Shown: piece by piece, positions 44,989 to 64,000 of the stretch
Layout: each line of letters opens with the position of its first letter
Position numbering within the stretch: position 1 is the stretch's first letter
Assembly (NCBI GenBank): GCA_963422655.1
Contig: OY730440.1
Location: 472,550-536,549, forward strand
DNA: 64,000 nucleotides
From: Acidimicrobiales bacterium
GTDB lineage: Bacteria; Actinomycetota; Acidimicrobiia; Acidimicrobiales; Aldehydirespiratoraceae
Direction: 5' to 3'
Made by a program: the position numbers and the translations under genes
Notes under the pieces: model-generated
Told to the model about the DNA's origin: nothing
The model's input: only the letters and a program-made list of their open reading frames with translations
The model's database searches: none

Positions 44989-45058
44989 GGGTGCTCCAGG
45001 CTACCGCTACCCCCTCTCAGCACCCCCGGTCGGTGGCCCGCCGGTACGGTGGCCGGAC

Positions 45059-46546
45059 GTGAACCGGATCGTGGTGATCCTGCTCGGCATCGTCGGTGCA
45101 GCCGTGGTCGTGCGGTTCGCCACTACTTCCCCCTTGTGGCTGGACGAAGCCTTGTCGGTCAACCTGGCCTCGCTGCCGCGGGCCGACCTGCCCGGCGCGC
45201 TGCGCCATGACGGCCATCCGATCCTCTATTACGCCCTGCTGGGGTTCTGGATCGACATGTTCGGTGATGACGACGGCCCCGTCCGCTGGCTCTCGGCTCT
45301 TTTCTCGCTGGCCACCGTTCCGGCGGTGTGGGCTGGCGCCCGCCGACGGCTGGGCCCGATCCCGGCCCGTTACGCGGCCGTGCTGACCGTCACCTCACCC
45401 TTCGTGATCCGCTACGGGTCAGAGGCTCGAATGTACGCCCTGATGATGCTGATCACGGCTCTGGGCTGGTGGCTGCTGGAAGCATCCCTGGGGCGGCCGA
45501 CCTGGTGGCGACTGACCGCGCTGGCGGCTGTCACCGCGGCCGGGTTGCACACCCACTATTGGATGATCCCGCTGGCGGCGGCGACGATGACGGTTCTGGC
45601 CGCCGGCTGGTTCCGTAGCCCGAACCGGCGCAGGACGCTGGCCGCCATCATGGCGGCTGTGGCCGTTGGCGGCCTCACTTTTGTCGCCTGGCTGGAGGTA
45701 TTCGTCGATCAGTTCCGCCACACCGGCACCCCGTGGGCCAATTGGGCTCGACCGGCCGAGGTGGCGGTGGAAACGATCCAAGCCATCGGTGGCGGCACCC
45801 GGTTCGAGCCCGTGCTGCTCGGTGTGGTGCTGACCTTGGCCATCGTCTTGGGGGCGACGATCCGCCGGACCGGGCACCGCTGGTTGGAGATCGCATCCCC
45901 AGCCCTCAACCCCACTGCCCCGGTGGTGGGGGTGGTGGTGATCAGCCTGAGCGTCGGTGGACTGGCCGCCGCCGTCACCCAGAGTGCTTTCGAGGCCCGC
46001 TACGCCGCTGCCGTCGTCCCTTTGCTACTGGGGCTGGCCGGCCGGGGCTTGGCCGGACTTACAGGCCGGGCCTCGCTTCTGACCTTGGTGGCGGTTGCCG
46101 CCTTCGGTGTGATCGTCGCCGTCGACGACGCCGTCCGAGACCGCACTCAAGGCCAACAGGTGGCCGACACCATCGACGAAGGATCGGCCCCCGGTGATCT
46201 GGTGGTGATATGCCCCGACCAGTTGGCTCCGGCCACGCTGCGCTACCTCGACTCGGCCCTGACGGTGCGTACCTATCCACCTACCGCTGATCCCGGCTTC
46301 ATCGACTGGTTCGACTACCGCGATCGCATCGCCGCCACCGACCCCGTCGAGTACGCCCGAGCCGCGGCCAGAACAGCCGGCTCGGGCACCGTATGGATGG
46401 TCACGATGCCCACCTACCGAGGCTTGGAAGGCCGGTGCGAAGCTGTCTCCACCGAGCTCGACCGCCGGAGAACCCGCCGAACCATGGTCACGTCCGGCCC
46501 CGAGTTCGAGCCGATGTTCCTGTACCGCTTCGAGGCCGGGCCGTGA
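45059..46546 (+). CDS. GT-C glycosyltransferase, GT39/PMT_2-like (polyprenyl-phosphate-mannose dependent type)
   Basis: The first loop SPLWLDEALSV (DE motif) is followed by HPILYYALLGFW and more than 10 TM segments. Start at GTG 45059 chosen to clear the divergent gene; uncertain. Confidence 0.7.
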   Translation: MNRIVVILLGIVGAAVVVRFATTSPLWLDEALSVNLASLPRADLPGALRHDGHPILYYALLGFWIDMFGDDDGPVRWLSALFSLATVPAVWAGARRRLGPIPARYAAVLTVTSPFVIRYGSEARMYALMMLITALGWWLLEASLGRPTWWRLTALAAVTAAGLHTHYWMIPLAAATMTVLAAGWFRSPNRRRTLAAIMAAVAVGGLTFVAWLEVFVDQFRHTGTPWANWARPAEVAVETIQAIGGGTRFEPVLLGVVLTLAIVLGATIRRTGHRWLEIASPALNPTAPVVGVVVISLSVGGLAAAVTQSAFEARYAAAVVPLLLGLAGRGLAGLTGRASLLTLVAVAAFGVIVAVDDAVRDRTQGQQVADTIDEGSAPGDLVVICPDQLAPATLRYLDSALTVRTYPPTADPGFIDWFDYRDRIAATDPVEYARAAARTAGSGTVWMVTMPTYRGLEGRCEAVSTELDRRRTRRTMVTSGPEFEPMFLYRFEAGP

Positions 46547-47625: not shown

Positions 47626-47697
47626 ACGGCTCACGACGACATCACGACGACATCGAGGCGGGATAGTCGGGACGGCCGGGGGCGTAGGCTCGCGATC

Positions 47698-49814: not shown

Positions 49815-49833
49815 CCTGCGACGGGCCCGGCCG

Positions 49834-51783: not shown

Positions 51784-51804
51784 GCGGGCCGAAGCCTTGT
51801 TCCG

Positions 51805-52806: not shown

Positions 52807-52813
52807 CTCACGA

Positions 52814-53632: not shown

Positions 53633-54435
53633 GGACGGCGCCGACCGACGAGAACCGGCTCACCATCTCCGTCATCGACGTCTCCAAGCGCTTCCGGCTC
53701 GAGTTCGACCGGCCCAGCTCCATCAAGGAGGCGGTGCTGCGCTTCGGGCGGCGCGACGTGAGCGACTTCTGGGCGCTGCGCGACATCTCGTTGGCCATCC
53801 CCCGGGGCTCGTTCTTCGGCATCGTGGGCCACAACGGCAGCGGCAAGTCGACCCTGCTGCGACTCATGGCCGGCATCCATCGCCCCACCACCGGAGAGAT
53901 CCACACCCGGGGCCGACTGTCGGCTCTGCTGGAGCTCGGATCGGGATTCCACACCGATCTGACCGGTAGGGAGAACGTGTTCCTGAACGGGGCCATACTG
54001 GGCCTGAACCGGCGGCAGATGGCAGCAGCCATGGACGAGATCGTCGAGTTCAGCGGCATCGGCGACCAGATCGACGTGCCGGTGAAGATCTACTCGAGCG
54101 GCATGTACATGCGCCTCGGTTTCGCCGTGGCCGTCAATGTCGATCCCGAGATCCTCCTCATCGACGAGGTGATCGCGGTCGGTGACGAGGATTTCCAGCA
54201 CAAGTGCATGCGCCACATGGACCAGCTCCGGGCCCGAGGCACCACCATCGTCGTCGTCTCCCACAACACTGACCTGGTGCGCCGACTCTCCGACACCGTA
54301 GGCTGGCTCGACCACGGACGAATGCTCGGCTTGGGCGACCCGGACACGATAGTCGACGAGTACCTCGATAGCGTTACCGACGGAGGGGAAATGACCCTCA
54401 CCGACCGGGACTGCTCGCCACCCGAGAGCATCTGA
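53629..54435 (+). CDS. wzt: ABC-2 type exporter ATP-binding protein (Wzt/TagH-like), copy 1
   Basis: Walker A GHNGSGKST, signature YSSGMYMRLGFAVA, Walker B ILLIDEV. ATGA overlap with wzm. At 268 aa it has no C-terminal carbohydrate-binding domain. Confidence 0.9.
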   Translation: MRTAPTDENRLTISVIDVSKRFRLEFDRPSSIKEAVLRFGRRDVSDFWALRDISLAIPRGSFFGIVGHNGSGKSTLLRLMAGIHRPTTGEIHTRGRLSALLELGSGFHTDLTGRENVFLNGAILGLNRRQMAAAMDEIVEFSGIGDQIDVPVKIYSSGMYMRLGFAVAVNVDPEILLIDEVIAVGDEDFQHKCMRHMDQLRARGTTIVVVSHNTDLVRRLSDTVGWLDHGRMLGLGDPDTIVDEYLDSVTDGGEMTLTDRDCSPPESI

Positions 54436-54438
54436 GCC

Positions 54439-55149
54439 ATGCCGGAGAAACAACCTCGCCTTTCGGTGATCATGCCCTGCTACAACGAAGCGGCCACCCT
54501 CGACCGGGCCGTGGGCCGAGTCCTGGCCAGCCCTCACACGTCCGAGCTGATCATCGTCGACGACGGCTCCACCGACGGCACCAGCGAAGTCCTGGCCAGC
54601 ATCGCTCACGAGCGGGTCCGGGTACTGCACCAATCCCCCAACCGAGGCAAAGGAGCTGCGGTCCGCCGAGGCTTCGCCGAAGCCACCGGCGATCTGGTGA
54701 TCATTCAGGACGCCGACTTGGAATACGATCCCGACGACTGGGACCTGATCCTCGAACCGCTGATCCGAGGTAACGCCGACGTGGTGTACGGCTCCCGGTT
54801 CCAATCGGGCCAGCCCCGACGGGTGCTCTACTTCTGGCACTACGTCGGCAACCGGATCCTCACCACTGCCTCGAATATCTTCACCAACCTGAACCTCACC
54901 GATATGGAGACATGCTGCAAGGCCTTCCGGCGCGAGGTGATCCAATCCATCACCCTCACCGAGAACCGCTTCGGGATAGAACCCGAAATCACCGCCAAAG
55001 TGGCCGTCGGCGGATGGCGAATCTGGGAAGTAGGCATCTCCTACTCGGGACGCACCTACGCCGAAGGCAAAAAGATCGGCTGGAAAGACGGCCTGACGGC
55101 GCTGTGGTGCATCCTCAAATACGGGATCAGCACCAGGATCGAGGCCTAG
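54439..55149 (+). CDS. GT2 glycosyltransferase, polyprenyl-phosphate sugar synthase-like (soluble/peripheral)
   Basis: LSVIMPCYNEA, LIIVDDGSTDGT, IQDADLEYDP. 236 aa. Confidence 0.85.
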   Translation: MPEKQPRLSVIMPCYNEAATLDRAVGRVLASPHTSELIIVDDGSTDGTSEVLASIAHERVRVLHQSPNRGKGAAVRRGFAEATGDLVIIQDADLEYDPDDWDLILEPLIRGNADVVYGSRFQSGQPRRVLYFWHYVGNRILTTASNIFTNLNLTDMETCCKAFRREVIQSITLTENRFGIEPEITAKVAVGGWRIWEVGISYSGRTYAEGKKIGWKDGLTALWCILKYGISTRIEA

Positions 55150-55214
55150 TGCCTCTAGAGTGCTCCGAGCGCGGGCGGCCGCCGACCATTTATCGAAACG
55201 CACCCACCTCTTTG

Positions 55215-57245
55215 ATGCCCTCCCACCGATGGCGATTGCCGTCCTACCCGCTGGCCGTGCTGGCCGTGCTCGCCGTGCTGGCCGTGCTGGCCGGCCCGGC
55301 CACCGCCCAAAGCGCCGAGCCGACCCAGGATCCGGAGACTTCCCCGACCGACGATCTCATCTTCACCTTCACGGGAGGAGGCTGGGGTCATGGTGTCGGG
55401 ATGAGCCAGTTCGGCGCCCTGGGACGGGCCGAAGCCGGGTTCGATCACATCGAGATTCTCGAGTTCTACTATGACGGTACCGAGGTGGTCACCGACCCCA
55501 CTTTGGTGGACGACGATATCGACGTGCTGGTATCGATCGACTCCTCGACCACTTTCGAACCGTCCGGACCGGTGACCGTGGCCATAGACGGATACGACAT
55601 CGGCTCGACCCAGAATTCGCTGACCGTCACCCGAGGTGACGGTGGATGGGTGATCTCCGACAGCGACGGGTCATGGTGCAGCGGGTGGTGCCGCGGTTCA
55701 CTGCTCACCGTGAGCTTCACCGAGGGCGAGCCGGTGGCAGTGTCGAGCGGGTACGCCTACGGGTACGGGCAGCTTCAACTCGTACCGGCCGCGAGCGGCG
55801 GACCAAGGTGTGGCACGGACTCGGATCGCTACTGCGTAGTCATCGGCGACATGACCATGCAGCAGTACCTGTACGGGGTGGACGAGATCTATTCGCATTG
55901 GCACCCCGAGGCCTTGGCCGCTCAAGCCATTGTCAGCCGCAGCTACTCGGTGGCCAGGTCGAACCAACGGGCCCACTGGACCAGCCCGTTCGAGCTCTAC
56001 GACTACGGGGACCAGACCTACCGGGGCTGGATGCCCGAAACCACCGACGGTGCACCGGTGGAGTGGATCGGTGCCGTCGACAGCACCGACGGCACCGTCA
56101 TCGTCCATCCCGAGCCAGAGCCCGGCCCCGAAAACACCAGCCCCGAAGGCGACGGGTACGTGATAACCGCATTCTTCTCGTCATCGAATGGGGGCCATAC
56201 GGCATCATCGGAAGAGCCTTGGACTAAACCACTCCCCTACCTGGTGCCCAAACCCGATCCCTACGACGCCGCCCCCGACCCTGACGGGGCGCCGCAGAAT
56301 CCCTTCCGTTCCTGGACCCGCCACTACACCGCCACCGACCTCAGCCGCTGGCTGGCCGATTACCCCCACGCCGATCTCGATGTGGGTCTGATCAGCCAGC
56401 TCACCATCGAGGGGTTAGGCCCCTCGGGCCGGATCGACGATGCCCTGGTCACTCTGACCGGCACGGACCGCACCCTGGAAGTCCGCGATGACGACGGCAA
56501 CCCCTACGGGTATCGGTTTTTCAAGGCCATATTCATCGGCTGTCAAGCCACGCCCGAGTGTTCGGAGATACACACGACCAAGCTCTGGGTCACCACATCG
56601 GGCACCGCACCCCCAGATCCCGACCCCATGGCAACAGCCGCGACGGTGCCGCCGATCCCAAGCTCAGCTCCTGCCTTCACCGATGTGATCGAAGATGCTT
56701 ACTACGCCCAACCCGTGGCCTGGATGGTGGCCAACAACATCACCACCGGCACCACCCCCACCACCTACTCCCCCCGAAAACCCGTCACCCGAGCCCAAAT
56801 AGCCACCTTCCTATGGCGCCTCGCTGGCAGCCCCGATGCCAACCAGCCCGCCACCGCCTTCACCGATGTGATCGAAGATGCTTACTACGCCCAACCCGTG
56901 GCCTGGATGGTGGCCAACAACATCACCACCGGCACCACCCCCACCACCTACTCCCCCCGAAAACCCGTCACCCGAGCCCAAATAGCCACCTTCCTATGGC
57001 GCCTCGCCGCCAGCCCCACCAGCAAAATACCAATCGCCTTCGACGATGTCTCCCCCGACGCCAACTACGCCCAACCTGTGGCCTGGATGGTGGCCAACAA
57101 CATCACCACCGGCACCACCCCCACCACCTACTCCCCCCGAAAACCCGTCACCCGAGCCCAAATAGCCACCTTCCTATGGCGCCTCGCCGCCAACCCCGAC
57201 GCCTTCGCGTCCGGGGCTGAACTACCCCCTTCGATGCGTCTGTAG
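55215..57245 (+). CDS. Secreted SpoIID/LytB-domain protein with three C-terminal SLH-type repeats
   Basis: Signal peptide RLPSYPLAVLAVLAVLAVLAGPATAQS. SpoIID signature FTGGGWGHGVGMSQFGALGRA. Three repeats of FTDV..AYYAQPVAWMVANNITTGTTPTTYSPRKPVTRAQIATFLWRLA match the SLH pattern F-x-DV...W/Y-A...G...F/Y-x-P...TRA-x-hA. Confidence 0.8.
   Translation: MPSHRWRLPSYPLAVLAVLAVLAVLAGPATAQSAEPTQDPETSPTDDLIFTFTGGGWGHGVGMSQFGALGRAEAGFDHIEILEFYYDGTEVVTDPTLVDDDIDVLVSIDSSTTFEPSGPVTVAIDGYDIGSTQNSLTVTRGDGGWVISDSDGSWCSGWCRGSLLTVSFTEGEPVAVSSGYAYGYGQLQLVPAASGGPRCGTDSDRYCVVIGDMTMQQYLYGVDEIYSHWHPEALAAQAIVSRSYSVARSNQRAHWTSPFELYDYGDQTYRGWMPETTDGAPVEWIGAVDSTDGTVIVHPEPEPGPENTSPEGDGYVITAFFSSSNGGHTASSEEPWTKPLPYLVPKPDPYDAAPDPDGAPQNPFRSWTRHYTATDLSRWLADYPHADLDVGLISQLTIEGLGPSGRIDDALVTLTGTDRTLEVRDDDGNPYGYRFFKAIFIGCQATPECSEIHTTKLWVTTSGTAPPDPDPMATAATVPPIPSSAPAFTDVIEDAYYAQPVAWMVANNITTGTTPTTYSPRKPVTRAQIATFLWRLAGSPDANQPATAFTDVIEDAYYAQPVAWMVANNITTGTTPTTYSPRKPVTRAQIATFLWRLAASPTSKIPIAFDDVSPDANYAQPVAWMVANNITTGTTPTTYSPRKPVTRAQIATFLWRLAANPDAFASGAELPPSMRL
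55251..55295 (+). repeat. 9-bp tandem repeat (ctggccgtg) x5 imperfect, encoding (LAV)n in the signal peptide
   Basis: Units lie at 55251, 55260, 55269 (ctcgccgtg), 55278 and 55287 (ctggccggc). Confidence 0.85.
56673..57190 (+). repeat. Three tandem 183/180-bp coding repeats (SLH modules)
   Basis: Copy starts (gccttc) lie at 56673, 56856 and 57036. Copies 1 and 2 are identical over 152 nt (56673-56824 vs 56856-57007). Copy 3 differs at its 5' end and by one c>t in cccaacctgtgg. Confidence 0.95.
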
Positions 57246-57261
57246 ACACGGGCTGACAACC

Positions 57262-58665
57262 ATGTCCGCCAACCAGAACTATTACGCTCCAGTCATGCCC
57301 AGCCATCCTGTTGCGCTCCCGACCAGGCCGGCCCCGAACCCAGGCCGGCCCGCGCCGATGCTACGGCGTCTAGGGTTCCGCTATCTCCACCTGATCGACG
57401 CCGTAACCCTGTTCGGACTCATGGCCGCCATCACCGTGGCCCGATTCGGATTGGATTGGCCCACCTATCCGCTCCCGCACTACATAGTGGGTTTCGCCAT
57501 CGCCGTGGCCATACACATGACGGTGTACTACTTCGGGGGGTTGTATGAGTACGAGCAAAGGCTGGGCCGCCCCCCCTGGCTGCCCCGCGCCACCATGCTC
57601 ACCGCTATCGCCGTGGGCGTCTCCGCAGCGACAGCGTTGCTGACGGAACGCTACCTGATGCCTCGGGCCAACTTGGTGGTGCTGATGTTGGGGGCCAGCC
57701 TGCTCGTCGCTTTCAACCGGTGGGTGGCCCGATCGGTGCGGTCCCGGCGCTTCGGCCGGCCTCAGGTCCTGCTGGTCGGAACCCCCGACGACACCAAGCC
57801 GGCTCATCGCCATCTCACCGAATCCGAGCCCGGCATCCGCCCCGTGGGCCAGACTTCGGACTTCGGTCGCATATCCACCAAAGTCAACCGGACGAAGGCC
57901 ACCGACGTCTTGTTGATCACCGGAGGATCGCTAAACGAGATCTACCCCGAACCCCTCGGTGAACTGGAGCGGCGCCTTATCGCTGTGTACCAGCGCGTCA
58001 CCCCTTCCGACACCCTCATGGGGCTCCAGCGAACCCGCCAGATCGCAGGCATGCCCTTCGTGGCCCTCCGCACCCACGCCATACCTCGGCACCGTCTCCG
58101 GTTCAAACGGCTCCTGGATTTGGTGTACCTCGTGGCGATGGCTCCCTTCGCCATTCCACTGATAGGCGCGGTTGCCGTCGTCGTGCGGATCCGGGCTGGC
58201 CGGGGCATCTTTTATCGCCAGATACGGGTCGGTTATCGGGCTCAACCCTTCACGATGCTGAAGTTTCGCACCATGGTCGAAGACGCCGAGTCCGCCAGCG
58301 GGCCGGTTCTGGCCAATTCCAGCGATCCCAGGGTCGTTTCCGGACTGGCCTGGTTGCGCCACTCCCGTCTAGACGAGCTACCCCAACTGTGGAACGTGGC
58401 CACCGGCGAGATGTCGATAGTCGGCCCTCGAGCTGAGCGGCCCGAGATGGTAACCGGCTTCGAGAAGCTGATCCCCGGATACAACCGTCGCCACGACACC
58501 CCTCCCGGTATCACCGGCTTGGCCCAGACTCAGGGCCATTACCAGACCGACGCCAACTACAAGATCGGCCACGATCTGCAATACATCGTGAACTGGTCTC
58601 CGATTCTCGATCTCGAGTTGATGGCAAAGGGCCTGATCGTCATGGCCCGCCGTTCGGGCCGGTAA
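57262..58665 (+). CDS. Polyprenyl-phosphate glycosyl-1-phosphate transferase (WbaP/bacterial sugar transferase family initiator)
   Basis: Four N-terminal TM segments precede the C-terminal catalytic domain, which carries KRLLDLVYLVAMAPFAIPL, MLKFRTM, DELPQLWNV and MSIVGPRAERPE. Confidence 0.9.
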   Translation: MSANQNYYAPVMPSHPVALPTRPAPNPGRPAPMLRRLGFRYLHLIDAVTLFGLMAAITVARFGLDWPTYPLPHYIVGFAIAVAIHMTVYYFGGLYEYEQRLGRPPWLPRATMLTAIAVGVSAATALLTERYLMPRANLVVLMLGASLLVAFNRWVARSVRSRRFGRPQVLLVGTPDDTKPAHRHLTESEPGIRPVGQTSDFGRISTKVNRTKATDVLLITGGSLNEIYPEPLGELERRLIAVYQRVTPSDTLMGLQRTRQIAGMPFVALRTHAIPRHRLRFKRLLDLVYLVAMAPFAIPLIGAVAVVVRIRAGRGIFYRQIRVGYRAQPFTMLKFRTMVEDAESASGPVLANSSDPRVVSGLAWLRHSRLDELPQLWNVATGEMSIVGPRAERPEMVTGFEKLIPGYNRRHDTPPGITGLAQTQGHYQTDANYKIGHDLQYIVNWSPILDLELMAKGLIVMARRSGR

Positions 58666-58708
58666 GACCCGACCCGGCGTCGGCGCTTACATCAGGCAGC
58701 AGGATCGC

Positions 58709-59452
58709 TCATCGGGTAGAGATGGCGGACATATAGGCGGACGTAACTCGATCCGGTTCGCCCTGCATGCGGATCAACCCCTTGTCCAACCATATGACCC
58801 GCCCGCAGGTGCTGGTGATCTCGGCCATATTGTGGGTGACGAGAACTACCAGACCCGACTCGGCTCGGATCTCGTCTATGCGCTCCCGGCTGCGCTCCTG
58901 AAATTCTTGGTCGCCTACGGCCAGCACTTCGTCGATCAGTAGCACCTCCGGTCTCCACGCGGTGGCGATGGCGAAGCCGAGTCGGGCCCTCATACCCGAC
59001 GAGTAAGTGCGCATGGGCCGGTCGATGGCGTCGCTCAAACCCGAGAAATCGATGATGGCGCCGGTTCGTTCGCTCACTTCGGCCCGGCTGAATCCCAGAG
59101 CCAGTCCCCCGATCATGATGTTGCGTCGACCCGAGAGCGCCGGTCGCAGCGCCGCCGTAACCCCCAGCAGGGTGGGCCGAGAGCGGGCCATGACCCTTCC
59201 CGACTCGAGGGGCAGCAGGCCGGTCATGGCTGCCAGCAGGGTGGACTTGCCCGATCCGTTAGGTCCGATGAGCCCCACCGTCTCACCACTGTGGAAGTCG
59301 TAGGTCACGCCCTGCACTGCCCGCACGGTCCGGTAGCGACGCTGGACCCGACCCCGAGCGAAGAGTCCCTTGAGCCCGACAGACGCGTCCTCATAGACCC
59401 GGTAGAAGACGTGGACGTCCTCGAGGCTCACGATAGCGGAGGAACCGGTCAT
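58709..59452 (-). CDS. wzt: ABC-2 type exporter ATP-binding protein (Wzt/TagH-like), copy 2
   Basis: Walker A GPNGSGKST, signature YSSGMRARLGFAIA, Walker B VLLIDEV. ATGA overlap with the upstream permease. The 119-aa extension in the ORF track is out-of-gene. Confidence 0.9.
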   Translation of the reverse strand: MTGSSAIVSLEDVHVFYRVYEDASVGLKGLFARGRVQRRYRTVRAVQGVTYDFHSGETVGLIGPNGSGKSTLLAAMTGLLPLESGRVMARSRPTLLGVTAALRPALSGRRNIMIGGLALGFSRAEVSERTGAIIDFSGLSDAIDRPMRTYSSGMRARLGFAIATAWRPEVLLIDEVLAVGDQEFQERSRERIDEIRAESGLVVLVTHNMAEITSTCGRVIWLDKGLIRMQGEPDRVTSAYMSAISTR

Positions 59453-60285
59453 CGTCCGAAGAGATGATCGGCGCGCCGGAAGACCACGAATCCAGCCACC
59501 GGCAGTACGACAGCCCAGGCAATGAACCCGGCCAAGACAAAGGCATCGGCCGGGTGGCCCATCAGGCACCATCGGGCGCAGGTGACCAAGTCGTAAACGG
59601 GGTTCAGGGCGAAGGCCCGTCGCCAGGCTGGGCTGGTGACGAACACGTCGACGCTGAAGATGACGCCCGACACGTAAAACAGCAGCCGAAACACGTGGGG
59701 CAACAACTGGTTGAAGTCGCGCACGGCCGCCCCTATGCGAGCGCTGATGAGGGCGGCGCCGACGTTGAACGAGAACTGACCGGCCAGGACCACAACGAAC
59801 AGGACCCATCGCAGTGCCGGACGCTCTCCGGTTGCCAGCAGGGTGATCAGCACCAGCACCAGCGCGGGAACGAACGCCAAAGTCTGCCCGTTGACAGTGG
59901 AGAGTGGTATCAGGATCCGGGGGAACTGCATGGAGCGGATGAGACTGTGGTTTCGAGGGATGGCAACCCCGGCGTCCTGCATCACCCGCTGGGTCAGATG
60001 GAACATGGCCACTCCCACTACCAAGAACCCGAGAAAGTTGTCAACGCCCCGACGCGTATCGAGCACCACGCCGAAGATCAGGAAGTAGACGCCGATCATC
60101 ATGGCCGGGTTGACGAGGTGCCAGAGCTGCCCCAGCACCGTGTCCATGTTCAGGGCCCGAAGGTCCTGAGCCGGCACAACCACGGCGAACTCCCGCCTCC
60201 GCCAGACGTCACGCAGGTAACTGCCGACACTTTGAGGCTCGGAAAGATCTAGGAGGGGGTGCCGATCTTCGACCATACCTCCCAT
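59449..60285 (-). CDS. wzm: ABC-2 type exporter permease (Wzm-like), copy 2
   Basis: LRDVWRRREFAVVVPAQDLRALNMDTVLGQLWHLVNPAMMIGVYFLIFGVVL with six TM segments. GAGGAG lies 11 nt upstream of ATG 60285. Confidence 0.85.
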   Translation of the reverse strand: MGGMVEDRHPLLDLSEPQSVGSYLRDVWRRREFAVVVPAQDLRALNMDTVLGQLWHLVNPAMMIGVYFLIFGVVLDTRRGVDNFLGFLVVGVAMFHLTQRVMQDAGVAIPRNHSLIRSMQFPRILIPLSTVNGQTLAFVPALVLVLITLLATGERPALRWVLFVVVLAGQFSFNVGAALISARIGAAVRDFNQLLPHVFRLLFYVSGVIFSVDVFVTSPAWRRAFALNPVYDLVTCARWCLMGHPADAFVLAGFIAWAVVLPVAGFVVFRRADHLFGR

Positions 60286-60329
60286 TCTAGGGCGTACTCC
60301 TCAGATGAGAGGTTCTGGAGGAGTGTTGG

Positions 60330-60830
60330 GCTCGGTGCCGGACCAGAAATGCTGCTGGGGGTTAGGGTTCGTTCGTGGTTGGGGATGGCGGGTCAGTTTC
60401 TTGGCGTCGAGGTGGATCGGCTGACCAGGGTGTTTGGGTTGGTCACGTCGGATCAGTTGCCGAGTTTGGTGTGTGTATTGTGCTTTCGGCGTATCCGTTG
60501 GGTGCGCCGGGTGGGTTTGTGGTTTTTGCGAGTGTTGTGTGGGTTTGGTTGGTGTTGGTTGTGGGGGTTGTGGTTTGTGGGTTGGTGAGTTGTATGCCGA
60601 ATGGTAGTTTTTGGTTGGTGTTGGGGTTGTGGTCGCCGGGGTGGATTTTGCAGGTGTTGATGGTGATGTGTTTGGTGGTTTGGCCGGGGTGGAATACGAG
60701 TTTGCCGGTGTTGGTGATGTAGCCGGGTGGGTGGGGGTGGATGCCGGGGTGGTCGGTGTGGGCGTGGCCGGCGTCGGGGTGGCTGGCGTCGCGTGGGCAG
60801 GTGTGTGTTGTTGGTAGCCGTTCGGTGGTT
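60330..60830. other. Zone of extreme strand compositional asymmetry (G+T-rich on + strand, C+A-rich on - strand)
   Basis: Hand counts: 60511-60660 is 134/150 G or T (C=7, A=9). 60541-60590 is 49/50 G or T with no C. 60361-60420 is 47/60 G or T. The zone spans both the 3' half of ORF 60443..61039 and the intergenic DNA down to wzm copy 2. Confidence 0.9.
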
Positions 60831-61039
60831 ACGATTCCTATGGCTGAGCAGCCTTGGTCGGGCCATGTGAGCGGATCCGGGTTCTTGTTTTTACAGTTCC
60901 GGGCTGCTAGCCCGGCCGGGTGGGCGGGCGTGGTGGCCCACTCGACGGTGATGGTCGTGTTTTCGGGGACGGGTCTTGATAGTCGGACCGCGAATCGGAT
61001 GGGCGTGCCTCGGGGTTGTTCTTCACCAGTGACCGACAT
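60443..61039 (-). CDS. Calx-beta-like beta-sandwich protein with aberrant Thr/Pro/Asn/His-rich C-terminal half (possibly decayed)
   Basis: RFAVRLSRPVPENTTITVEWATT ... GKLVFHPGQTTKHITINTCKI ... LPFGIQLTNPQ follows the Calx-beta pattern (h-x-V-x-r ... V-x-Y-x-T ... G-x-L-x-F-x-PG-x-t-x-K-x-I-x-I ... F-x-V-x-L-x-NP). The start lies 9 nt after the stop of the repeat-protein ORF. All three minus frames are open here because T and G are scarce, so an open frame alone is weak evidence. Confidence 0.4.
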   Translation of the reverse strand: MSVTGEEQPRGTPIRFAVRLSRPVPENTTITVEWATTPAHPAGLAARNCKNKNPDPLTWPDQGCSAIGIVTTERLPTTHTCPRDASHPDAGHAHTDHPGIHPHPPGYITNTGKLVFHPGQTTKHITINTCKIHPGDHNPNTNQKLPFGIQLTNPQTTTPTTNTNQTHTTLAKTTNPPGAPNGYAESTIHTPNSATDPT

Positions 61040-61048
61040 CCGGATCGT

Positions 61049-64000
61049 TTAGACTGCGGGCGGGCAGAGTTTCTTGTTTTCTGGGTGGGTGTGTTCTCCG
61101 GTGCGTGGAGCGCGGATCGTTGCCCAGACGATTTCTGTTCGTGTCGTGCTGGTGGTAGAGCAGACCGGTTCTAGGTGATGGTGACATCCGGTGTCGGGGC
61201 TGGTGCTGCCGGTTTGGGGGTATTGGTCACGGTGCTGACCTGACGCACAGTTGTGGTGCCACCGGCCCGGGTTGCCGGGTATTTCTTGTTTGGGGAACGT
61301 TTCGGTGTACACGGGCTGCCAGGGCCCGGTGGAGTGCCCGTAAGAGGTGTACTCGTAGGTTCCGTTGCTGCGGGTCGTGTCGTGACCGCCTGGTGGTGTG
61401 CAGTGGGTTCGGGTCAGAGTAACCCGGCACGTCTGAGGGTCCTTGACGACTTTGCCGGTGCTCGGGTCGCATCTCCACCAGTGAACCGTGTGGGTAGCCC
61501 ACGTCTTGTTCAGGTCGATAATTTGCACAGCGGCTGTGATCGTCACGTCGGGCACCGCGCCGCGTAACACCCATCCCTGCCCTGCCGGGTCCGCGACCCC
61601 TGCCAACACCGGGGGAGCCAAATCCGTTCTAACATATTTGGAGTCAGAGTATTTCACCGCGGGCGGGACCGGTCTCTTGTTGTCGTCGAGCACCGTCGCC
61701 GGTCTAGCCGGACACAAGTCCACCCACCTCCCCGCATCACCCACGTCGATTATTTTGGTTGCCGTGTTCCGGTCGTACACCGCATGCCACGGCCCGGTCG
61801 AGTGCCCATAATAGGTGTACTTGTAGGGTCCGCTGATACGGTGCGTGCCGTGACCGCTCCACGGCACGCAATGGGTTCGGGTCAAAGTCACCCGGCACGT
61901 CTGAGGGTCTTCGACGATCTTGCCGGTACCGGGGTCGCATCTCCACCAGTGAACCGTATGAGTAGCCCACGTATTCGCGTCGTTACGAACATAGGTCGTC
62001 ACCTCACGCGTGACCCGGTCTCTAGCACCTCGCAGCTCCCAGCCCGGCCCGGCCGGTTCCGGCGGGGCTCGTAACGGTTCAGAAACCGCCGCCGCGGTCT
62101 CGTCGGGTTTGGTTTCTGCTGGCCGGGCCCGCTCGATTTGGGTGATCTCGGTCGGTGGAGTCACCGAATGGCACTGGTTCACCCACCTGCCCGGGTCGCC
62201 CTCGTCGATTATCTTGGTGGTTGTGTTCCGCTTGTACACCGGATGCCAGGGCCCGGTCGAGTGCCCGTAAGAGGTGTACTCGTAGATTCCGGTGCCGCGG
62301 GTGTCGCCGTGACCGCCCCACGGCACGCAATGGGTTCGGGTCAAAGTCACCCGACACGTCTGAGGGTCTTTGACGATCTTGCCGGTACCGGGGTCGCATC
62401 GCCACCAGTGAACCGTATGAGTAGCCCACGTACTCGTGTCGTTACGAACATAGGTCGTCACCTCACGCGTGACCCGGTTTCTAGCGTTTTGGAGCTCCCA
62501 GCCCGGCCCGGACGGTTTCGGCGGGGCTCGTAACGGTTCAGAAACCGTCGGGGTGGTCTCGTCGGGTTTGGTTTCTGCTGGCCATGCCCGCACGATTTGG
62601 ATGATCCTGGTCGGTGGGGTCACCGAAGCGCACCGGTGCACCCACACGCCCGGGTCGCCTTTGTCGATCGTTTCGGTTGCCGTGGTCCGGTCATACACCG
62701 CATTCCAGGGCCCGGTCGAGTGCCCGTAAGAGGTGTACTCGTAGACTTCGCTGATACGGTGCGTGCCGTGACCACCTGGTGGTGCGCAGTGGGTTCGGGT
62801 CAGAGTAACCCGACACGTCTGAGGGTCCTCGACGATCTTGCCGGTGGCCGGGTCGCATCGCCACCAGTGAACCGTGTGGGTAGCCCACGTCCGGGACAGA
62901 TCCAACCGGATGGTCGTCACCTCACGGGTGATCTGGTTTCTGGCGTTTCGCAGCACCCAGCCCGGCCCGGACGGTTTCGGCGGGGCTCGTAACGGTTCAG
63001 AAACCGTCGGGGTGGTCTCGTCGGGTTTGGTTTCTGCTGGCCATGCCCGCACGATTTGGATGATCTCGGTTGGTGGGGTCACCGAAGCGCACCGGTGCAC
63101 CCACACGCCCGGATCACCCTTGTCGATTATCTTGGTTATCTTGGTTGCCGTGGTCCGGTCATACACCGCATGCCAGGGCCCGGTCGAGTGCCCGTAAGAG
63201 GTGTACTTGTAGGGTCCGCTGATACGGGTAGCGCCGTGACCGCCCGACGGCGCGCAGTGGGTTCGGGTCAGGTCCACCCGGCACGTCTGAGAGTTCACGA
63301 AGACTTTGCCGGTGGCCCGGTCGCATCGCCACCAGTGAACCCTATGAGTGGCCCACGTCCGGGCCAGGTCCAACCGAAATGTCGTCACCTCACGCGTGAC
63401 CCGGTCTCTAGCACCTCGCAGCACCCAGCCCGGCCCGGCCGGTTTCGGCGGCGGCGCCACCCTGGCTGTCACCGCGTCGGCGGTCTCGATTTTCGACGGT
63501 TCCGGTCCCGGCCGGTACGCGACCGTGACATCAGCGGGGATGTCTTTGGTCCGGCACGCTATCCCGACGTCCAAACCGATGTTCGACCACAACGTGTTGA
63601 CATACTTTTTCGGGGCCGCGCCGATCTTTTTGGGGGTTACCACCGTTTCCCAGGTCACCGCCACCCTGAACCGGGCGTCTCTACCAGTCGGGCCCGCGAA
63701 CTTGGCGTACAAGTTGCCGGTGCACGGCTGTATCCACGCCCAGCGCTTGTCCTCGCGGCACGTGTTGCCGCCCGGCCCGCGAACGTAACGGGCCCCGCCC
63801 CCGTAAGCCGCTACCGTCGCAGCGCCGCCCGACCCGCTGATCCACCACCTCAACTCGACAGGGCGGCTAGACACCGAACCGCAAACACCGGCCCTGTCAA
63901 AAGCAACCGGCACCGCCACTTTCGCGGTCAACGACCGGCCCGTGTCGCCTTTCAGCCCGCCCGCCGGCGAAATGCCCGGCCCGAACCGAGAACCCGACCC
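61049..64000 (-). CDS. Large repeat protein (more than 980 aa, N-terminus outside the window): five tandem Cys/Trp/His-rich 153-156-aa modules of unknown family
   Basis: The ORF-track start at 63931 is a TTG. The frame stays open to 64000 (my translation: GSGSRFGPGISPAGGLKGDTGRS-LTAKVAV...). The core TWATHTVHWWRCDPxTGKxVxDPQTCRVTLTRTHCxPxGGH...YEYTSYGHSTGPW occurs five times. TAA stop at 61049-61051. Confidence 0.75.
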   Translation of the reverse strand, partial: GSGSRFGPGISPAGGLKGDTGRSLTAKVAVPVAFDRAGVCGSVSSRPVELRWWISGSGGAATVAAYGGGARYVRGPGGNTCREDKRWAWIQPCTGNLYAKFAGPTGRDARFRVAVTWETVVTPKKIGAAPKKYVNTLWSNIGLDVGIACRTKDIPADVTVAYRPGPEPSKIETADAVTARVAPPPKPAGPGWVLRGARDRVTREVTTFRLDLARTWATHRVHWWRCDRATGKVFVNSQTCRVDLTRTHCAPSGGHGATRISGPYKYTSYGHSTGPWHAVYDRTTATKITKIIDKGDPGVWVHRCASVTPPTEIIQIVRAWPAETKPDETTPTVSEPLRAPPKPSGPGWVLRNARNQITREVTTIRLDLSRTWATHTVHWWRCDPATGKIVEDPQTCRVTLTRTHCAPPGGHGTHRISEVYEYTSYGHSTGPWNAVYDRTTATETIDKGDPGVWVHRCASVTPPTRIIQIVRAWPAETKPDETTPTVSEPLRAPPKPSGPGWELQNARNRVTREVTTYVRNDTSTWATHTVHWWRCDPGTGKIVKDPQTCRVTLTRTHCVPWGGHGDTRGTGIYEYTSYGHSTGPWHPVYKRNTTTKIIDEGDPGRWVNQCHSVTPPTEITQIERARPAETKPDETAAAVSEPLRAPPEPAGPGWELRGARDRVTREVTTYVRNDANTWATHTVHWWRCDPGTGKIVEDPQTCRVTLTRTHCVPWSGHGTHRISGPYKYTYYGHSTGPWHAVYDRNTATKIIDVGDAGRWVDLCPARPATVLDDNKRPVPPAVKYSDSKYVRTDLAPPVLAGVADPAGQGWVLRGAVPDVTITAAVQIIDLNKTWATHTVHWWRCDPSTGKVVKDPQTCRVTLTRTHCTPPGGHDTTRSNGTYEYTSYGHSTGPWQPVYTETFPKQEIPGNPGRWHHNCASGQHRDQYPQTGSTSPDTGCHHHLEPVCSTTSTTRTEIVWATIRAPRTGEHTHPENKKLCPPAV
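61241..63427 (-). repeat. Tandem array of five 459-468-bp coding repeats
   Basis: The unit marker (ccca + g/t + ccc..., encoding PxG(P/Q)GW) occurs at 61570, 62038, 62497, 62956 and 63424, giving periods of 468, 459, 459 and 468 bp. There is a 110-nt perfect match between 62497-62606 and 62956-63065. Confidence 0.9.

What the first reader, a model, noticed from the sequence alone, without database searches (positions are those of the whole stretch)
60443..61039. Calx-beta-like ORF whose C-terminal half looks like the G-to-A image of a normal high-GC protein
The N-terminal 70 aa are compositionally ordinary. My count for the last 102 aa is T 23, P 15, N 11, H 9, I 6 against R 0, E 1, V 1, D 2, A 4. 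In a genome whose other proteins are dominated by A/G/R/V/D/E, this matches the codon-level substitutions A>T, D>N, E>K, R>H/Q and V>I that G>A changes produce. The Calx-beta acidic positions (I-x-dD..E.nE.F.V.L) read I-H-P-G-D-H-N-P-N-T-N-Q-K-L-P-F-G-I-Q-L here. The ORF is therefore either a hypermutated relic kept open only because stop codons need T, or a real Thr/Pro/Asn-rich tail. Such a tail could be an O-glycosylation substrate, since a PMT-like GT39 is encoded at 45059..46546.
Basis: partly seen in the sequence, partly recalled or inferred. Interest (0 to 1): 0.6.

Follow-up and report, generated by a model that had tools for sequence, protein, structure and literature searches.

The report
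Severed, G-depleted tail of surface-protein gene
The 198-codon ORF is the cut-off end of a very large cell-surface protein gene. Its odd Thr/Pro/Asn/His make-up comes from an extreme, graded loss of G and T on the coding strand, in a sequence that still evolves like a working protein.

Summary
The composition is as described and highly non-random. 118 consecutive codons carry only A or C at the third position, and third-position G is 3% against 31-36% in neighbouring genes. The Calx-beta similarity is real (hhalign 95.9%; 31 exhaustive phmmer hits, all eight checked being Calx-beta proteins). It is one domain split by a 67-residue insert, and its acidic calcium ligands are replaced.

The ORF is not a gene of its own. 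In a sister strain (94.9% identical over 6 kb, 97-99% outside the repeats) it is the in-frame end of a 1745-aa signal-bearing repeat protein. Here GAA>TAA at 61049-61051 cuts it off, and ATA>ATG creates its start.

It is not a dead relic. The last 103 codons show 0 nonsynonymous and 3 synonymous differences (P about 8e-5 under neutrality).

The bias works on nucleotides, not on the protein. It fills synonymous sites and the 3' spacer, and ramps up over about 660 nt. It recurs at the 3' end of an SLH gene on the other DNA strand, and is mirror-imaged over the first 1.5 kb of the same gene. "G>A" alone is too narrow, because T is lost as well.

The cause is unresolved. I favour an expression-linked, strand-specific transition pressure; selection for pair-free, C-rich RNA is the main rival. 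The O-glycosylation link is unsupported.

The parts
60443..61039 (-). ORF198: the severed C-terminal module of the giant surface-protein gene. It holds a Calx-beta-like domain with an insert, followed by a Thr/Asn/Pro/Gln-rich end.
   Evidence: It is in frame with the upstream ORF in the sister contig L001:4608-9845.
61049..61051 (-). Premature stop TAA, which is GAA (Glu) in the sister strain. It splits the gene.
   Evidence: (position 61051, G>T).
61037..61039 (-). ATG start of ORF198, which is ATA (Ile) in the sister strain. It lies 9 nt after the new stop, within a cluster of 4 substitutions in 16 nt, and may act as a translational restart.
   Evidence: positions 61036, 61037, 61040, 61051.
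61052..64000 (-). Upstream part of the same gene (product P0034, 1538 aa, runs off the window). It has five tandem units of 459-478 nt between 61090 and 63412, with the motif TWATHTVHWWRCDP.
60926..61003 (-). Residues 13-38: first half of the Calx-beta domain (PIRFAVRLSRPVPENTTITVEWATTP).
   Evidence: Custom Calx-beta HMM, positions 21-44.
60725..60925 (-). Residues 39-105: a Cys- and His-rich insert in the Calx-beta loop. Between the two strains it evolves as if neutral.
   Evidence: pN/pS is 0.96 for the N-terminal half. There is a weak PLA2-like match at E 0.44.
60548..60724 (-). Residues 106-164: second half of the Calx-beta domain (GYITNTGKLVFHPGQTTKHITIN...FGIQLTNP). The acidic ligands are replaced by N, Q, K or H.
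   Evidence: hhalign 95.9%, E 5.8e-9. HMM positions 52-104. The best PDB match is the integrin beta-4 Calx-beta domain, E 0.11.
60443..60547 (-). Residues 165-198 plus the TGA stop: a Thr/Asn/Pro/Gln-rich C-terminal extension with no sorting signal.
   Evidence: It is identical at the protein level in the sister strain.
60286..60442 (-). Spacer before the ABC-2 permease gene. About 100 nt of it is A/C-rich on the sense strand. In the sister strain it reads on in frame as PTQTP*SADPPQRQETDPPSPTTNEP*, so it looks like a former coding tail.
60300..61450 (.). The whole skew zone. The + strand is G/T-rich and the sense strand A/C-rich. The skew peaks at 60450-60700, ends sharply near 60300, and ramps down towards 61450.
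56100..57250 (+). A second zone of the same kind, at the 3' end of the SpoIID/SLH gene (three SLH repeats). The sense strand is A/C-rich although the gene lies on the other DNA strand.
59449..60285 (-). The co-directional downstream gene, an ABC-2 (Wzm-like) permease. Its composition is normal from the first codons.

Best explanation
**What it is (shown).** ORF198 is the last 198 codons of a gene for a very large secreted or N-terminally anchored repeat protein, 1745 aa in a sister strain. In this genome a single GAA>TAA change cuts it off, and a neighbouring ATA>ATG change gives the fragment a start codon. The fragment encodes one Calx-beta-type beta-sandwich. A 67-residue Cys/His-rich insert interrupts that domain, its usual acidic calcium ligands are missing, and a roughly 35-residue Thr/Asn/Pro/Gln-rich end follows it.

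**Why it looks strange (shown).** The Thr/Pro/Asn/His/Gln/Lys composition is what the genetic code yields from DNA made almost only of A and C. A nucleotide-level pressure has removed G and T from the coding strand at every site where the protein tolerates it:
- It fills all synonymous sites and the non-coding spacer.
- It has changed many amino acids.
- Almost the only G and T left are those needed for Gly, Ala, Asp, Ile, Leu, Phe and Tyr codons.
- The pressure rises smoothly over about 660 nt towards the 3' end and stops abruptly next to the start of the following gene.

**How it probably arises (inferred).** I think the pressure is a strand-specific excess of the two transitions typical of single-stranded DNA damage. 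These are C>T and A>G on the window's + strand, which read as G>A and T>C in the gene. I also think it is linked to expression of the locus. The geometry fits the + strand being displaced as the non-template strand of an antisense transcript that starts in the spacer near 60300-60375. On this reading the G/T-rich first 1.5 kb of the same gene and the upstream lipoprotein genes are the ordinary, sense-transcription version of the same effect. Purifying selection on the protein filters the outcome.
For: **Identity**
- The sister contig L001 is 94.9% identical over 6 kb, and 97-99% outside the repeats. It carries one ORF of 1745 codons whose end is ORF198.
- The stop and start codons arise from point changes.
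- The upstream product P0034 belongs to the same genome.

**Calx-beta**.

**Nucleotide-level pressure**
- Third-position G is 3% and T 2%, with 118 A/C-ending codons in a row. 97 A/C-ending codons are observed against 65 expected for the same amino acids.
- Thr and Pro codons are ACC/ACA and CCC/CCA. The genome norm includes ACG and CCG, and the lipoprotein genes use ACG/ACT.
- The spacer is affected too.
- 26 of 29 remaining G and 20 of 22 remaining T sit at codon positions 1 or 2.

**Gradient**: third-position keto skew falls from about +0.2 to -1.0 across codons 1400-1650 of the sister gene.

**Transition signature**
- In the mirror zone, 4-fold sites (A .04, C .08, G .52, T .37) equal the gene's own baseline after C>T and A>G.
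- The tail (A .31, C .63, G .06, T 0) is close to the genome baseline after G>A and T>C.
- The last tandem repeat, compared with its four paralogues, shows G>A 10:1 and T>C 4:0 in the well-aligned part.
- In the sister strain's IS481 copy, the skewed half shows G>A 17:4 against three relatives.

**Oriented by transcript, not by replication**
- The same sense A/C zone occurs in the SLH gene on the other DNA strand.
- It also occurs in an IS481 found at five unrelated sites.

**Linked to expression**
- Recent changes run towards A/C in intact zones (16:9 and 8:2).
- Downstream of the premature stop they run towards G/T (15:2). Fisher P is 0.001.

**Still coding**
- The tail has Nd 0 and Sd 3. 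Its pS of 0.040 is like the neighbours'. P is 8e-5 under neutrality.

**Established background**: the strand that spends more time single-stranded becomes G/T-rich through deamination, as on leading strands and non-template strands (review PMC10030826).
Against: - No antisense promoter is shown. The sigma-70 scan finds none, and the only lead is one TANNNT box at 60363.
- An antisense-driven process gives no obvious reason for the pressure to lapse after a sense-strand nonsense codon.
- The strain comparison cannot be polarised without an outgroup, and allele replacement by recombination is not excluded.
- In the SLH zone, G at 4-fold sites is replaced by C rather than A. Restoring G at both A and C rescues the Calx-beta profile best. 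Both look like avoidance of G rather than a pure G>A process.
- No bacterial process is known that gives so strong a local skew.
- The IS481 skew is shared by relatives from other metagenomes. That points to a long-maintained state, which selection explains as easily as mutation.
- The antisense + frame 60375-60722 shares its third positions with the tail. The 0:3 result therefore cannot by itself say which frame is constrained.
- AlphaFold gave no usable model (pLDDT 37).
Confidence: 0.5

Rival explanations
1. Selection on the RNA. The end of the mRNA and its 3' spacer are kept free of G and U so that the RNA cannot base-pair and is C-rich and G-poor. Such RNA is an ideal loading site for the Rho termination factor whenever ribosomes are absent. 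It would insulate the downstream wzm/wzt and Bac_transf genes from strongly expressed surface-protein genes, or act as a translation checkpoint. The G/U-rich 5' region would be the opposite, a Rho-resistant state.
For: - The sense RNA of 60360-60720 folds at only -4 to -13 kcal/mol per 120 nt, against a background of -46.6 +/- 8.3, with a C/G ratio of 3-6.
- Both A/C zones lie directly upstream of a co-directional gene, with no predicted intrinsic terminator on that strand.
- The zone follows the sense strand on both DNA strands.
- In the SLH zone, G is replaced by C at 4-fold sites and by A only where there is no other choice.
- The state persists in IS481 relatives.
- The state decays after the nonsense codon, and a restart ATG is created beside it. 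Both would relieve polarity.
- There is precedent that Rho shapes coding-strand composition and synonymous sites (PMC13323073).
Against: - A loading site needs about 80-100 nt, not 700-1100 nt inside a translated region where ribosomes would shield it.
- Rho favours pyrimidines, yet U is the rarest base here.
- Depletion of A in the 5' zone is not explained.
- It would require stronger selection at synonymous sites than any known codon bias, strong enough to override amino-acid identity, including the calcium ligands.
- Gene 3' ends in this window show no general C>G shift (41 genes, t = 0.46).
Confidence: 0.28
2. Dead relic. The region is a hypermutated pseudogene remnant that stays open only because A/C-only DNA cannot contain stop codons.
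For: - All six frames of 60300-60760 have only 1-4 stops per 153 codons, so being open means little.
- In this strain the fragment lies behind a premature stop and lacks a signal peptide.
- Its N-terminal half has pN/pS 0.96.
- The protein databases searched hold no relative of the full-length gene, and ORF198 itself matches only distant Calx-beta proteins.
Against: - It is in frame and full-length in the sister strain.
- The last 103 codons have 0 nonsynonymous against 3 synonymous differences at a normal pS (P 8e-5).
- The remaining G and T are exactly those that encode Gly and core hydrophobic residues.
- Both halves of the Calx-beta domain are still recognisable.
Confidence: 0.07
3. Protein-level selection. 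The tail is selected for its Thr/Pro/Asn content, for example as an O-glycosylated, cell-wall-spanning stalk, and the DNA composition merely follows.
For: - The tail is conserved at the protein level.
- Thr/Pro linkers are common in this organism's secreted proteins (L006).
- A PMT_2 glycosyltransferase is encoded at 44885-46546.
Against: - It does not explain A/C-only synonymous sites (97 observed against 65 expected), the A/C-rich spacer, or the ramp through the preceding repeat.
- An ordinary Thr/Pro linker in the same organism keeps CCG and GCT codons (third-position G 0.18). The lipoprotein Thr tracts use ACG/ACT.
- The PMT_2 gene sits in a GT2/GT4/ABC-2 polysaccharide cluster.
Confidence: 0.08
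4. The real gene is on the + strand. The G/T-rich strand would encode a small hydrophobic protein (60375..60722, 115 aa) or an antisense RNA, and that product would be what is conserved.
For: - The conserved stretch (60446-60751) coincides with this ORF, and the two frames share third positions.
- A TAGGGT box lies 6 nt before its GTG, which would suit a leaderless transcript.
Against: - An ORF is expected by chance in A-poor DNA.
- No family matches it.
- The sister strain has TGA at its 12th codon (position 60408).
- The Calx-beta homology identifies the - frame.
Confidence: 0.04

Closest known systems
Calx-beta domain (Pfam PF03160) of large bacterial surface proteins and of integrin beta-4 / Na-Ca exchangers
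   Same: The strand pattern ...FxVxLSxP...VTVxYAT...DY..xxGxLxFxPGxTxKxIxV...F.V.L.NP is kept. hhalign gives 95.9%. Every exhaustive phmmer hit checked (8 of 31) is a multi-Calx-beta protein, and the best PDB match is the integrin beta-4 Calx-beta domain.
   Different: There is a single copy rather than a tandem array, split by a 67-residue insert. It scores below Pfam's gathering cut-off (12.5 against 27 bits). The acidic calcium ligands are replaced by N, Q, K or H, and the conserved DY is GY.
G>A hypermutated retroviral DNA (APOBEC3) and fungal RIP
   Same: There is strong one-strand loss of G with a gain of A, and the amino-acid shifts are of the D>N, E>K, A>T and V>I kind.
   Different: T is lost and C gained as well. 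No dinucleotide context stands out and no unmutated progenitor copy was found. The frame is intact in the sister strain and under purifying selection. The skew forms a smooth gradient rather than following a copy boundary.
Strand asymmetry from single-strand deamination (vertebrate mitochondrial genes, bacterial leading strands, non-template strands of genes)
   Same: G/C and A/T skews are coupled. Third positions are almost free of G on the sense strand. The skew is graded along the DNA, and the G/T-rich strand would be the one exposed as single-stranded (PMC10030826).
   Different: The zone is only about 1.2 kb and lies inside one chromosomal gene. It is far stronger than known bacterial transcription or replication skews. 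Its sign is opposite to that expected from sense transcription, and the same gene carries a mirror-image zone.
Rho utilisation (rut) regions: C-rich, G-poor, unstructured RNA
   Same: The C/G ratio is 3-6, there is almost no predicted structure over more than 360 nt, and the zone sits just upstream of a co-directional gene.
   Different: It is many times longer than needed, lies mostly inside a translated ORF, and lacks U. Termination has not been tested.
Thr/Pro-rich linkers of actinobacterial secreted proteins
   Same: The tail is rich in Thr and Pro and belongs to a signal-bearing protein.
   Different: It is also rich in Asn, His, Gln and Lys. It overlaps a folded domain, and its synonymous sites are A/C-only, unlike an ordinary linker in the same organism.

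Membership tests
Calx-beta domain (PF03160) | Pfam model match at or above the gathering score | tested here: not met
   12.5 bits, E 0.15, against a cut-off of 27; residues 106-164 match profile positions 55-109.
Calx-beta domain (PF03160) | Significant sequence or profile similarity to confirmed family members | tested here: met
   Exhaustive phmmer found 31 proteins at E<=1e-3 (best relative 4.5e-12). All 8 checked carry 3-9 Calx-beta repeats. hhalign gives 95.9%, E 5.8e-9. An HMM built from 394 domains scores 36.6 bits.
Calx-beta domain (PF03160) | Both halves of the beta-sandwich are present | tested here: met
   Residues 13-38 match HMM positions 21-44 and residues 106-164 match positions 52-104, separated by a 67-residue insert.
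Calx-beta domain (PF03160) | Acidic calcium-binding residues (the conserved D and E of ..D...E..E.F.. and the DY) | tested here: not met
   One D is kept (PGD). The other positions read H, N, P, N, T, N, Q, K, and DY is GY.
Calx-beta domain (PF03160) | Predicted fold is a Calx-beta / Ig-like sandwich | tested here: inconclusive
   Single-sequence AlphaFold2 gave mean pLDDT 36.9. Strands are predicted but the model is unusable.
G>A hypermutated sequence (deaminase or RIP type) | One-strand loss of G with a matching gain of A, other bases untouched | tested here: not met
   G is lost and A gained, but T also falls (position 3: 0.02 against 0.12-0.21) and C rises (0.65 against 0.36-0.47).
G>A hypermutated sequence (deaminase or RIP type) | Preferred dinucleotide context of the changed G | tested here: inconclusive
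   The 10 polarised G>A changes sit in CG (4), AG (3), GG (2) and TG (1) contexts. That is too few to judge.
G>A hypermutated sequence (deaminase or RIP type) | Loss of function, with relaxed selection in the mutated copy | tested here: not met
   The tail has Nd 0 and Sd 3 in 103 codons, and is in frame in the sister strain.
G>A hypermutated sequence (deaminase or RIP type) | Reverting G>A (and T>C) specifically restores the ancestral family consensus | tested here: not met
   Reversion gains 13.5 bits. Control reversions gain 10.0 to 22.1 bits, and the best restores G at both A and C.
Diversity-generating retroelement target (variable region at the gene's 3' end) | A template repeat nearby that matches the variable region except at adenines, plus a reverse transcriptase | tested here: not met
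   No direct or inverted repeat of the tail occurs in 54000-64000 or in the sister contig. No reverse transcriptase was seen among the ORFs scanned.
Protein O-mannosylation substrate (GT39 Pmt) | A dedicated GT39 enzyme, a secreted Thr/Ser-rich target, and demonstrated modification | not testable with these tools
   The nearby enzyme is PMT_2 (PF13231, E 7e-12) inside a GT2/GT4/ABC-2 cluster. The full-length protein has an N-terminal hydrophobic signal. Modification needs glycoproteomics.
Rho-dependent terminator / rut site | C-rich, G-poor, unstructured RNA of at least about 80 nt upstream of the release point | tested here: met
   Sense C is 0.42-0.52 and G 0.07-0.17; MFE is -4 to -17 per 120 nt over 60360-60839.
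Rho-dependent terminator / rut site | Rho-dependent 3' ends at the site | not testable with these tools
   This needs Term-seq or RNA-seq with and without Rho activity.

The most novel reading that the evidence does not exclude
The locus records a natural, expression-coupled, strand-specific transition hypermutation. C>T plus A>G would accumulate on whichever strand is displaced within about 1-1.5 kb of particular start sites. The cause could be self-reinforcing R-loops, a polymerase-associated deaminase, or 3'-primed cDNA conversion. The process would be concentrated on cell-surface protein genes, strong enough to rewrite domains while selection keeps them folded, and switched off when a nonsense codon stops expression of the region.
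Probability: 0.12. Interest if true: 0.85.

Novelty: new variant of a known kind. Interest (0 to 1): 0.55.

Why it matters
- **Annotation.** A 198-aa "hypothetical protein" and a 1538-aa one are really a single surface-protein gene broken by one base change. Open reading frames mean little in DNA this skewed.
- **Biology.** Local strand asymmetries in bacteria are normally a few per cent. Here a 65% G+C genome holds a kilobase in which one strand has almost no G or T at free sites. It ramps smoothly, has a mirror-image partner in the same gene, and still encodes a conserved domain.
- **If the cause is mutational.** The locus would be a natural example of position- and strand-targeted mutagenesis acting on surface proteins.
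- **If the cause is selection.** It would be an unusually strong case of RNA-level selection overriding both codon choice and amino-acid identity.
- **Testability.** Either answer can be reached with standard transcript mapping and mutation-spectrum sequencing.

Tried and rejected
- **Relatives.** The word-indexed protein search found only the protein itself. The full-length query found only this genome's own truncated product. The genome-collection scan with the neighbouring permease found one 28%-identical Cryobacterium MAG. The JGI metagenome scan found nothing, and plasmid and phage tblastn found nothing. Exact look-ups of P0001, P0034 and the Bac_transf protein are not on record. The only comparator is therefore one close sister strain.
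- **Simple repeat origin.** No significant tandem array was found, and Calx-beta homology runs through the A/C-rich part.
- **DGR.** There is no template repeat.
- **Inverted copy of, or pairing with, the G/T-rich 5' zone.** Only chance-level matches were found.
- **IS481 as proof of a local DNA-strand process.** I first read its skewed half that way. However, all five copies at unrelated sites are 99.8-99.9% identical and relatives elsewhere share the skew, so the skew is intrinsic to the element.
- **Replication-strand explanation.** The same sense-strand skew occurs in genes on both DNA strands.
- **Double-strand breaks in the central repeats, with resection.** This gives the right signs. 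But the skew is weakest next to the repeats and strongest far from them.
- **A general property of gene 3' ends.** This is not seen in 41 genes.
- **Translational codon optimisation.** Lys, Gln, Glu, Ile, Leu and Arg use AAA, CAA, GAA, ATA, CTA and CGA, which are uncommon to rare in the window's other genes.
- **Reversion test for a pure G>A/T>C origin.** It was not discriminating.
- **Structure prediction.** The model was unusable.
- **Other scans.** Rfam found no family in the window. There is no sigma-70-type promoter in 59900-61600 and no terminator beyond chance. There is no canonical G-quadruplex motif in 60000-61600.
Full report
**1.

The ORF at 60443..61039 (-) encodes 198 residues. 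The last 102 residues are T 23, P 15, N 11, H 9, I 7, with R 0, E 1, V 1, D 2 and A 4.

On the coding strand, 60443-60748 is G 9.8%, T 7.5%, C 45.8% and A 36.9%. The strongest signal is at synonymous sites. Third positions of codons 97-198 are A 0.30, C 0.65, G 0.03 and T 0.02. Neighbouring genes have G 0.31-0.36 and A 0.08-0.13.

- Codons 75-192, 118 in a row, end only in A or C.
- For the same amino acids, the window's codon usage predicts 65 A/C-ending codons of 102; 97 are seen.
- Across 47 ORFs chosen as likely genes, third-position keto skew in 60-codon windows averages -0.07 (sd 0.19). This ORF scores -0.73 and reaches -1.00. The only other outlier is the SLH-repeat end of the gene at 54912-57245, at -0.77.

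The skew also extends beyond the ORF, from about 60300 to about 61450.

**2. The Calx-beta similarity is real**

Pfam alone gives E 0.15 and 12.5 bits, below its 27-bit cut-off. An exhaustive phmmer search of 1.84 billion representatives gives 31 proteins at E<=1e-3, the best relative at 4.5e-12. All eight that I checked carry 3-9 Calx-beta repeats.

- hhalign against an alignment of eight such domains gives 95.9%, E 5.8e-9, for residues 104-158.
- An HMM built from 394 domains matches residues 13-38 and residues 106-164 as the two halves of one domain. They are separated by a 67-residue Cys/His-rich insert.
- The best solved structure is the integrin beta-4 Calx-beta domain, at E 0.11.
- The acidic ligand positions are N, Q, K or H, and DY is GY.
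- AlphaFold2 without an alignment was unusable, with pLDDT 37.

**3. It is not a gene of its own**

The adjacent ABC-2 permease has a near-identical copy on a 24.8-kb metagenome contig. That contig, L001, is 94.9% identical to the window over 6 kb, and 97-99% outside the tandem repeats.

On L001 a single 1745-codon ORF (L001:4608-9845) runs through "...NKKLCPPAVETIRIAVTGEEQPRGTPIRF..." to the same Thr/Asn-rich end. In the window, GAA has become TAA at 61049-61051, and ATA has become ATG at 61037-61039. These belong to a cluster of four substitutions within 16 nt.

The upstream piece is this genome's 1538-aa protein P0034, which runs off the window. The full-length protein has a hydrophobic N-terminus, poly-Thr and poly-Pro tracts, and tandem repeats with the motif TWATHTVHWWRCDP. 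The window copy has five such units of 459-478 nt. The whole protein scores no Pfam family. No relative turned up in any collection I could search.

**4. It is not a dead relic**

Between the two strains, the last 103 codons show 3 synonymous and 0 nonsynonymous differences. Their pS of 0.040 is in the range of the flanking housekeeping genes (0.02-0.05). With pN equal to pS, 9.4 nonsynonymous changes would be expected, so P is 8e-5.

Of the G left in the tail, 26 of 29 are at codon positions 1 or 2, and 16 of those lie in eight Gly codons. Of the T left, 20 of 22 are at positions 1 or 2 of Ile, Leu, Phe, Tyr, Val, Cys or Ser codons. This pattern is what a strong nucleotide pressure filtered by selection on the protein would leave.

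Two caveats apply.
- The comparator is a single close strain.
- The antisense + frame 60375-60722 shares third positions with the tail, so the 0:3 split alone does not assign the constraint to a frame. The Calx-beta homology and a TGA in that + frame in the sister strain (position 60408) favour the - frame.

The first 95 codons of ORF198, mostly the insert, evolve as if neutral (pN/pS 0.96).

**5. The pressure acts on nucleotides and is graded**

In the sister gene, third-position keto skew falls step by step across codons 1400-1650. The successive values are about +0.2, 0, -0.2, -0.3, -0.5, -0.6, -0.9 and -1.0. It then stays saturated to the stop.

The A/C richness continues for about 100 nt past the stop. 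There the frame reads PTQTP*SADPPQRQETDPPSPTTNEP*, which looks like a former coding tail. The skew ends within tens of bases near 60300, beside the start of the permease gene, whose own third positions are normal.

Thr and Pro codons in the tail are ACC/ACA and CCC/CCA. The genome norm is ACC/ACG and CCG/CCC. An ordinary Thr/Pro linker in the same organism keeps CCG and GCT codons. Amino-acid selection, including any glycosylation role, therefore cannot be the cause.

The nearby "GT39" is a PMT_2 protein (E 7e-12) inside a GT2/GT4/ABC-2/Bac_transf glycopolymer cluster.

**6. The wider pattern**

- *Mirror image.* In the sister contig, the first roughly 500 codons of the same gene carry the opposite bias. 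So do two upstream lipoprotein paralogues and the spacers between them. Third positions there are C 0.05-0.20, T 0.32-0.47, G 0.40-0.55 and A 0-0.08. Codons 600-1400 are normal. The window's right edge already shows the onset.
- *Fit to transitions.* At 4-fold sites this zone (A .04, C .08, G .52, T .37) equals the gene's baseline (A .09, C .32, G .46, T .14) after C>T and A>G. The tail (A .31, C .63, G .06, T 0) is near the genome baseline (A .09, C .46, G .32, T .12) after G>A and T>C.
- *Second zone.* A sense-A/C zone occupies the 3' end of the SpoIID/SLH gene on the other DNA strand. It too has a sharp distal edge and decays over about 1.1 kb. The polarity therefore follows the gene and not the replication strand.
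- *IS481.* The 3' half of an IS481 transposase shows the same bias. All five copies at unrelated sites are 99.8-99.9% identical. Three relatives from other samples, 83-89% identical in protein, share it. The skew is thus intrinsic to the element and long maintained.
- *Not general.* The bias is not a property of gene ends in general (41 genes, t = 0.46).

**7. Direction of change**

Against its four paralogues, the last tandem repeat shows G>A 10 against A>G 1, and T>C 4 against C>T 0, in the well-aligned part. The sister strain's IS481 copy, compared with its relatives, shows G>A 17 against A>G 4 in the skewed half and 4 against 3 in the other half.

Between the two strains, the window is the more A/C-rich in two intact zones. 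The counts are 16:9 upstream of the stop and 8:2 in the SLH zone. Downstream of the premature stop it is the less A/C-rich, at 2:15, spread over synonymous, nonsynonymous and non-coding sites. Fisher P is about 0.001 for both contrasts.

Without an outgroup this cannot be polarised. On either reading, the A/C state is driven or maintained where the gene is intact, and not behind the nonsense codon. That points to a link with expression.

Some tests went against a pure G>A process.
- Reverting G>A/T>C rescues the Calx-beta profile no better than control reversions. Restoring G at both A and C does best.
- In the SLH zone, G at 4-fold sites gave way to C rather than A.
- No dinucleotide context stands out.

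**8. Explanation**

Shown:
- The ORF is a severed C-terminal module of a larger gene.
- It contains a Calx-beta-type domain without acidic ligands.
- Its composition comes from a graded, transcript-oriented depletion of G and T at the nucleotide level.
- That depletion is superimposed on purifying selection.

Inferred: the depletion reflects an excess of C>T and A>G on the window's + strand, the pair of changes typical of DNA that spends time single-stranded (PMC10030826).

One geometry fits every zone. The G/T-rich strand would be the non-template strand within about 1-1.5 kb downstream of a start site. Sense starts would serve the lipoprotein genes and the 5' end of the giant gene. Antisense starts would sit at the 3' ends of the giant and SLH genes, possibly as divergent partners of the downstream genes' promoters.

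The only sequence lead is a TAGGGT box at 60363, 6 nt before a GTG. The sigma-70 scan finds no promoter.

The main rival is selection for an RNA that cannot pair and is C-rich and G-poor. The sense RNA of 60360-60720 folds at -4 to -13 kcal/mol per 120 nt, against -46.6 +/- 8.3. Such RNA is what Rho loads on. There is precedent for Rho shaping coding-strand composition (PMC13323073).

This rival explains the sense orientation, the persistence in IS481, the decay after the nonsense codon, and the restart ATG. It does not explain the length of the zone, its position inside a translated ORF, the absence of U, or the loss of A in the mirror zone.

I give the mutational reading a modest edge and regard the question as open.

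**9. Novelty and verdict**

- The Calx-beta module is a divergent member of a known family in an otherwise orphan protein.
- The gene split is ordinary strain-level decay.
- The compositional phenomenon belongs to a known kind, strand compositional asymmetry. Here it appears in a form I could not match to any described bacterial case: kilobase-scale, saturating, graded, mirrored within one gene, and compatible with a conserved protein.
- It merits transcript mapping and mutation-spectrum sequencing.

Noticed in passing
window 56673-57197 (+): There are three SLH repeats with a 162-nt core, 99% and 91% identical to the reference copy. They are genuine SLH domains by Pfam (E 1.2e-27) but are written almost wholly in A/C-ending codons: Thr is ACC in 28 of 28 cases, and Lys, Gln, Arg, Ile and Leu are AAA, CAA, CGA, ATA and CTA. 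This looks like recent triplication of an already skewed unit.
   Followed up: partly
L001:1-6200 and L003 (sister-strain contig, beyond the window's right end): Tandem lipoprotein paralogues (367, 362 and about 385 aa), the spacers between them, and the first 1.5 kb of the giant gene form a zone of at least 6 kb. In it the sense strand is G/T-rich and Thr is encoded by ACG/ACT. An IS481 insertion interrupts the zone.
   Followed up: partly
L003:3001-3981; L008, L009, L010: 301-1281: The second half of this IS481-family transposase gene (codons 161-326) has third positions of C about 0.6 and G 0.11-0.23 in four elements from different samples. The first half is normal. This is a conserved, element-intrinsic skew of unknown cause.
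   Followed up: partly
window 61036-61051: Four substitutions within 16 nt, relative to the sister strain, create both the TAA and an ATG 9 nt downstream. This may be a compensatory translational restart after the nonsense mutation.
   Followed up: no
window 60842-60931 (ORF198 residues 37-66): The insert in the Calx-beta domain weakly resembles the N-terminal part of a fungal/bacterial secreted phospholipase A2 (4aup, E 0.44: A.PA.L.A..RNKNP..L.W.D.GCS). This is unconfirmed.
   Followed up: no
window 29532-29624 (+): ARAGORN calls a 93-nt tRNA-Ala(GGC) here, but Rfam finds no tRNA at gathering score anywhere in the window. The call is probably false.
   Followed up: no
window 44885-60285: A cell-envelope glycopolymer cluster is present. 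It holds a PMT_2 GT-C protein, several GT2 and GT4 enzymes, two ABC-2 permeases with an ABC ATPase, and a Bac_transf priming transferase. Two surface-protein genes, whose skewed 3' ends face inward, flank the convergent Bac_transf and ATPase/permease genes at its right-hand end.
   Followed up: partly
window 61090-63412 (-): Five tandem units of 459-478 nt each encode a roughly 155-residue Cys-containing module with the motif TWATHTVHWWRCDP. They match no Pfam family and have no relative outside the two strains. This is the most divergent part between the strains (77-90% identity), which suggests repeat reshuffling.
   Followed up: partly
window 60375-60722 (+): A 115-codon ORF for a Val/Gly/Trp/Leu-rich product lies antisense to the tail, in the frame that shares third positions with it. 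A TAGGGT box sits 6 nt before its GTG. It is most likely a by-product of A-poor DNA, since the sister strain has TGA at codon 12.
   Followed up: partly
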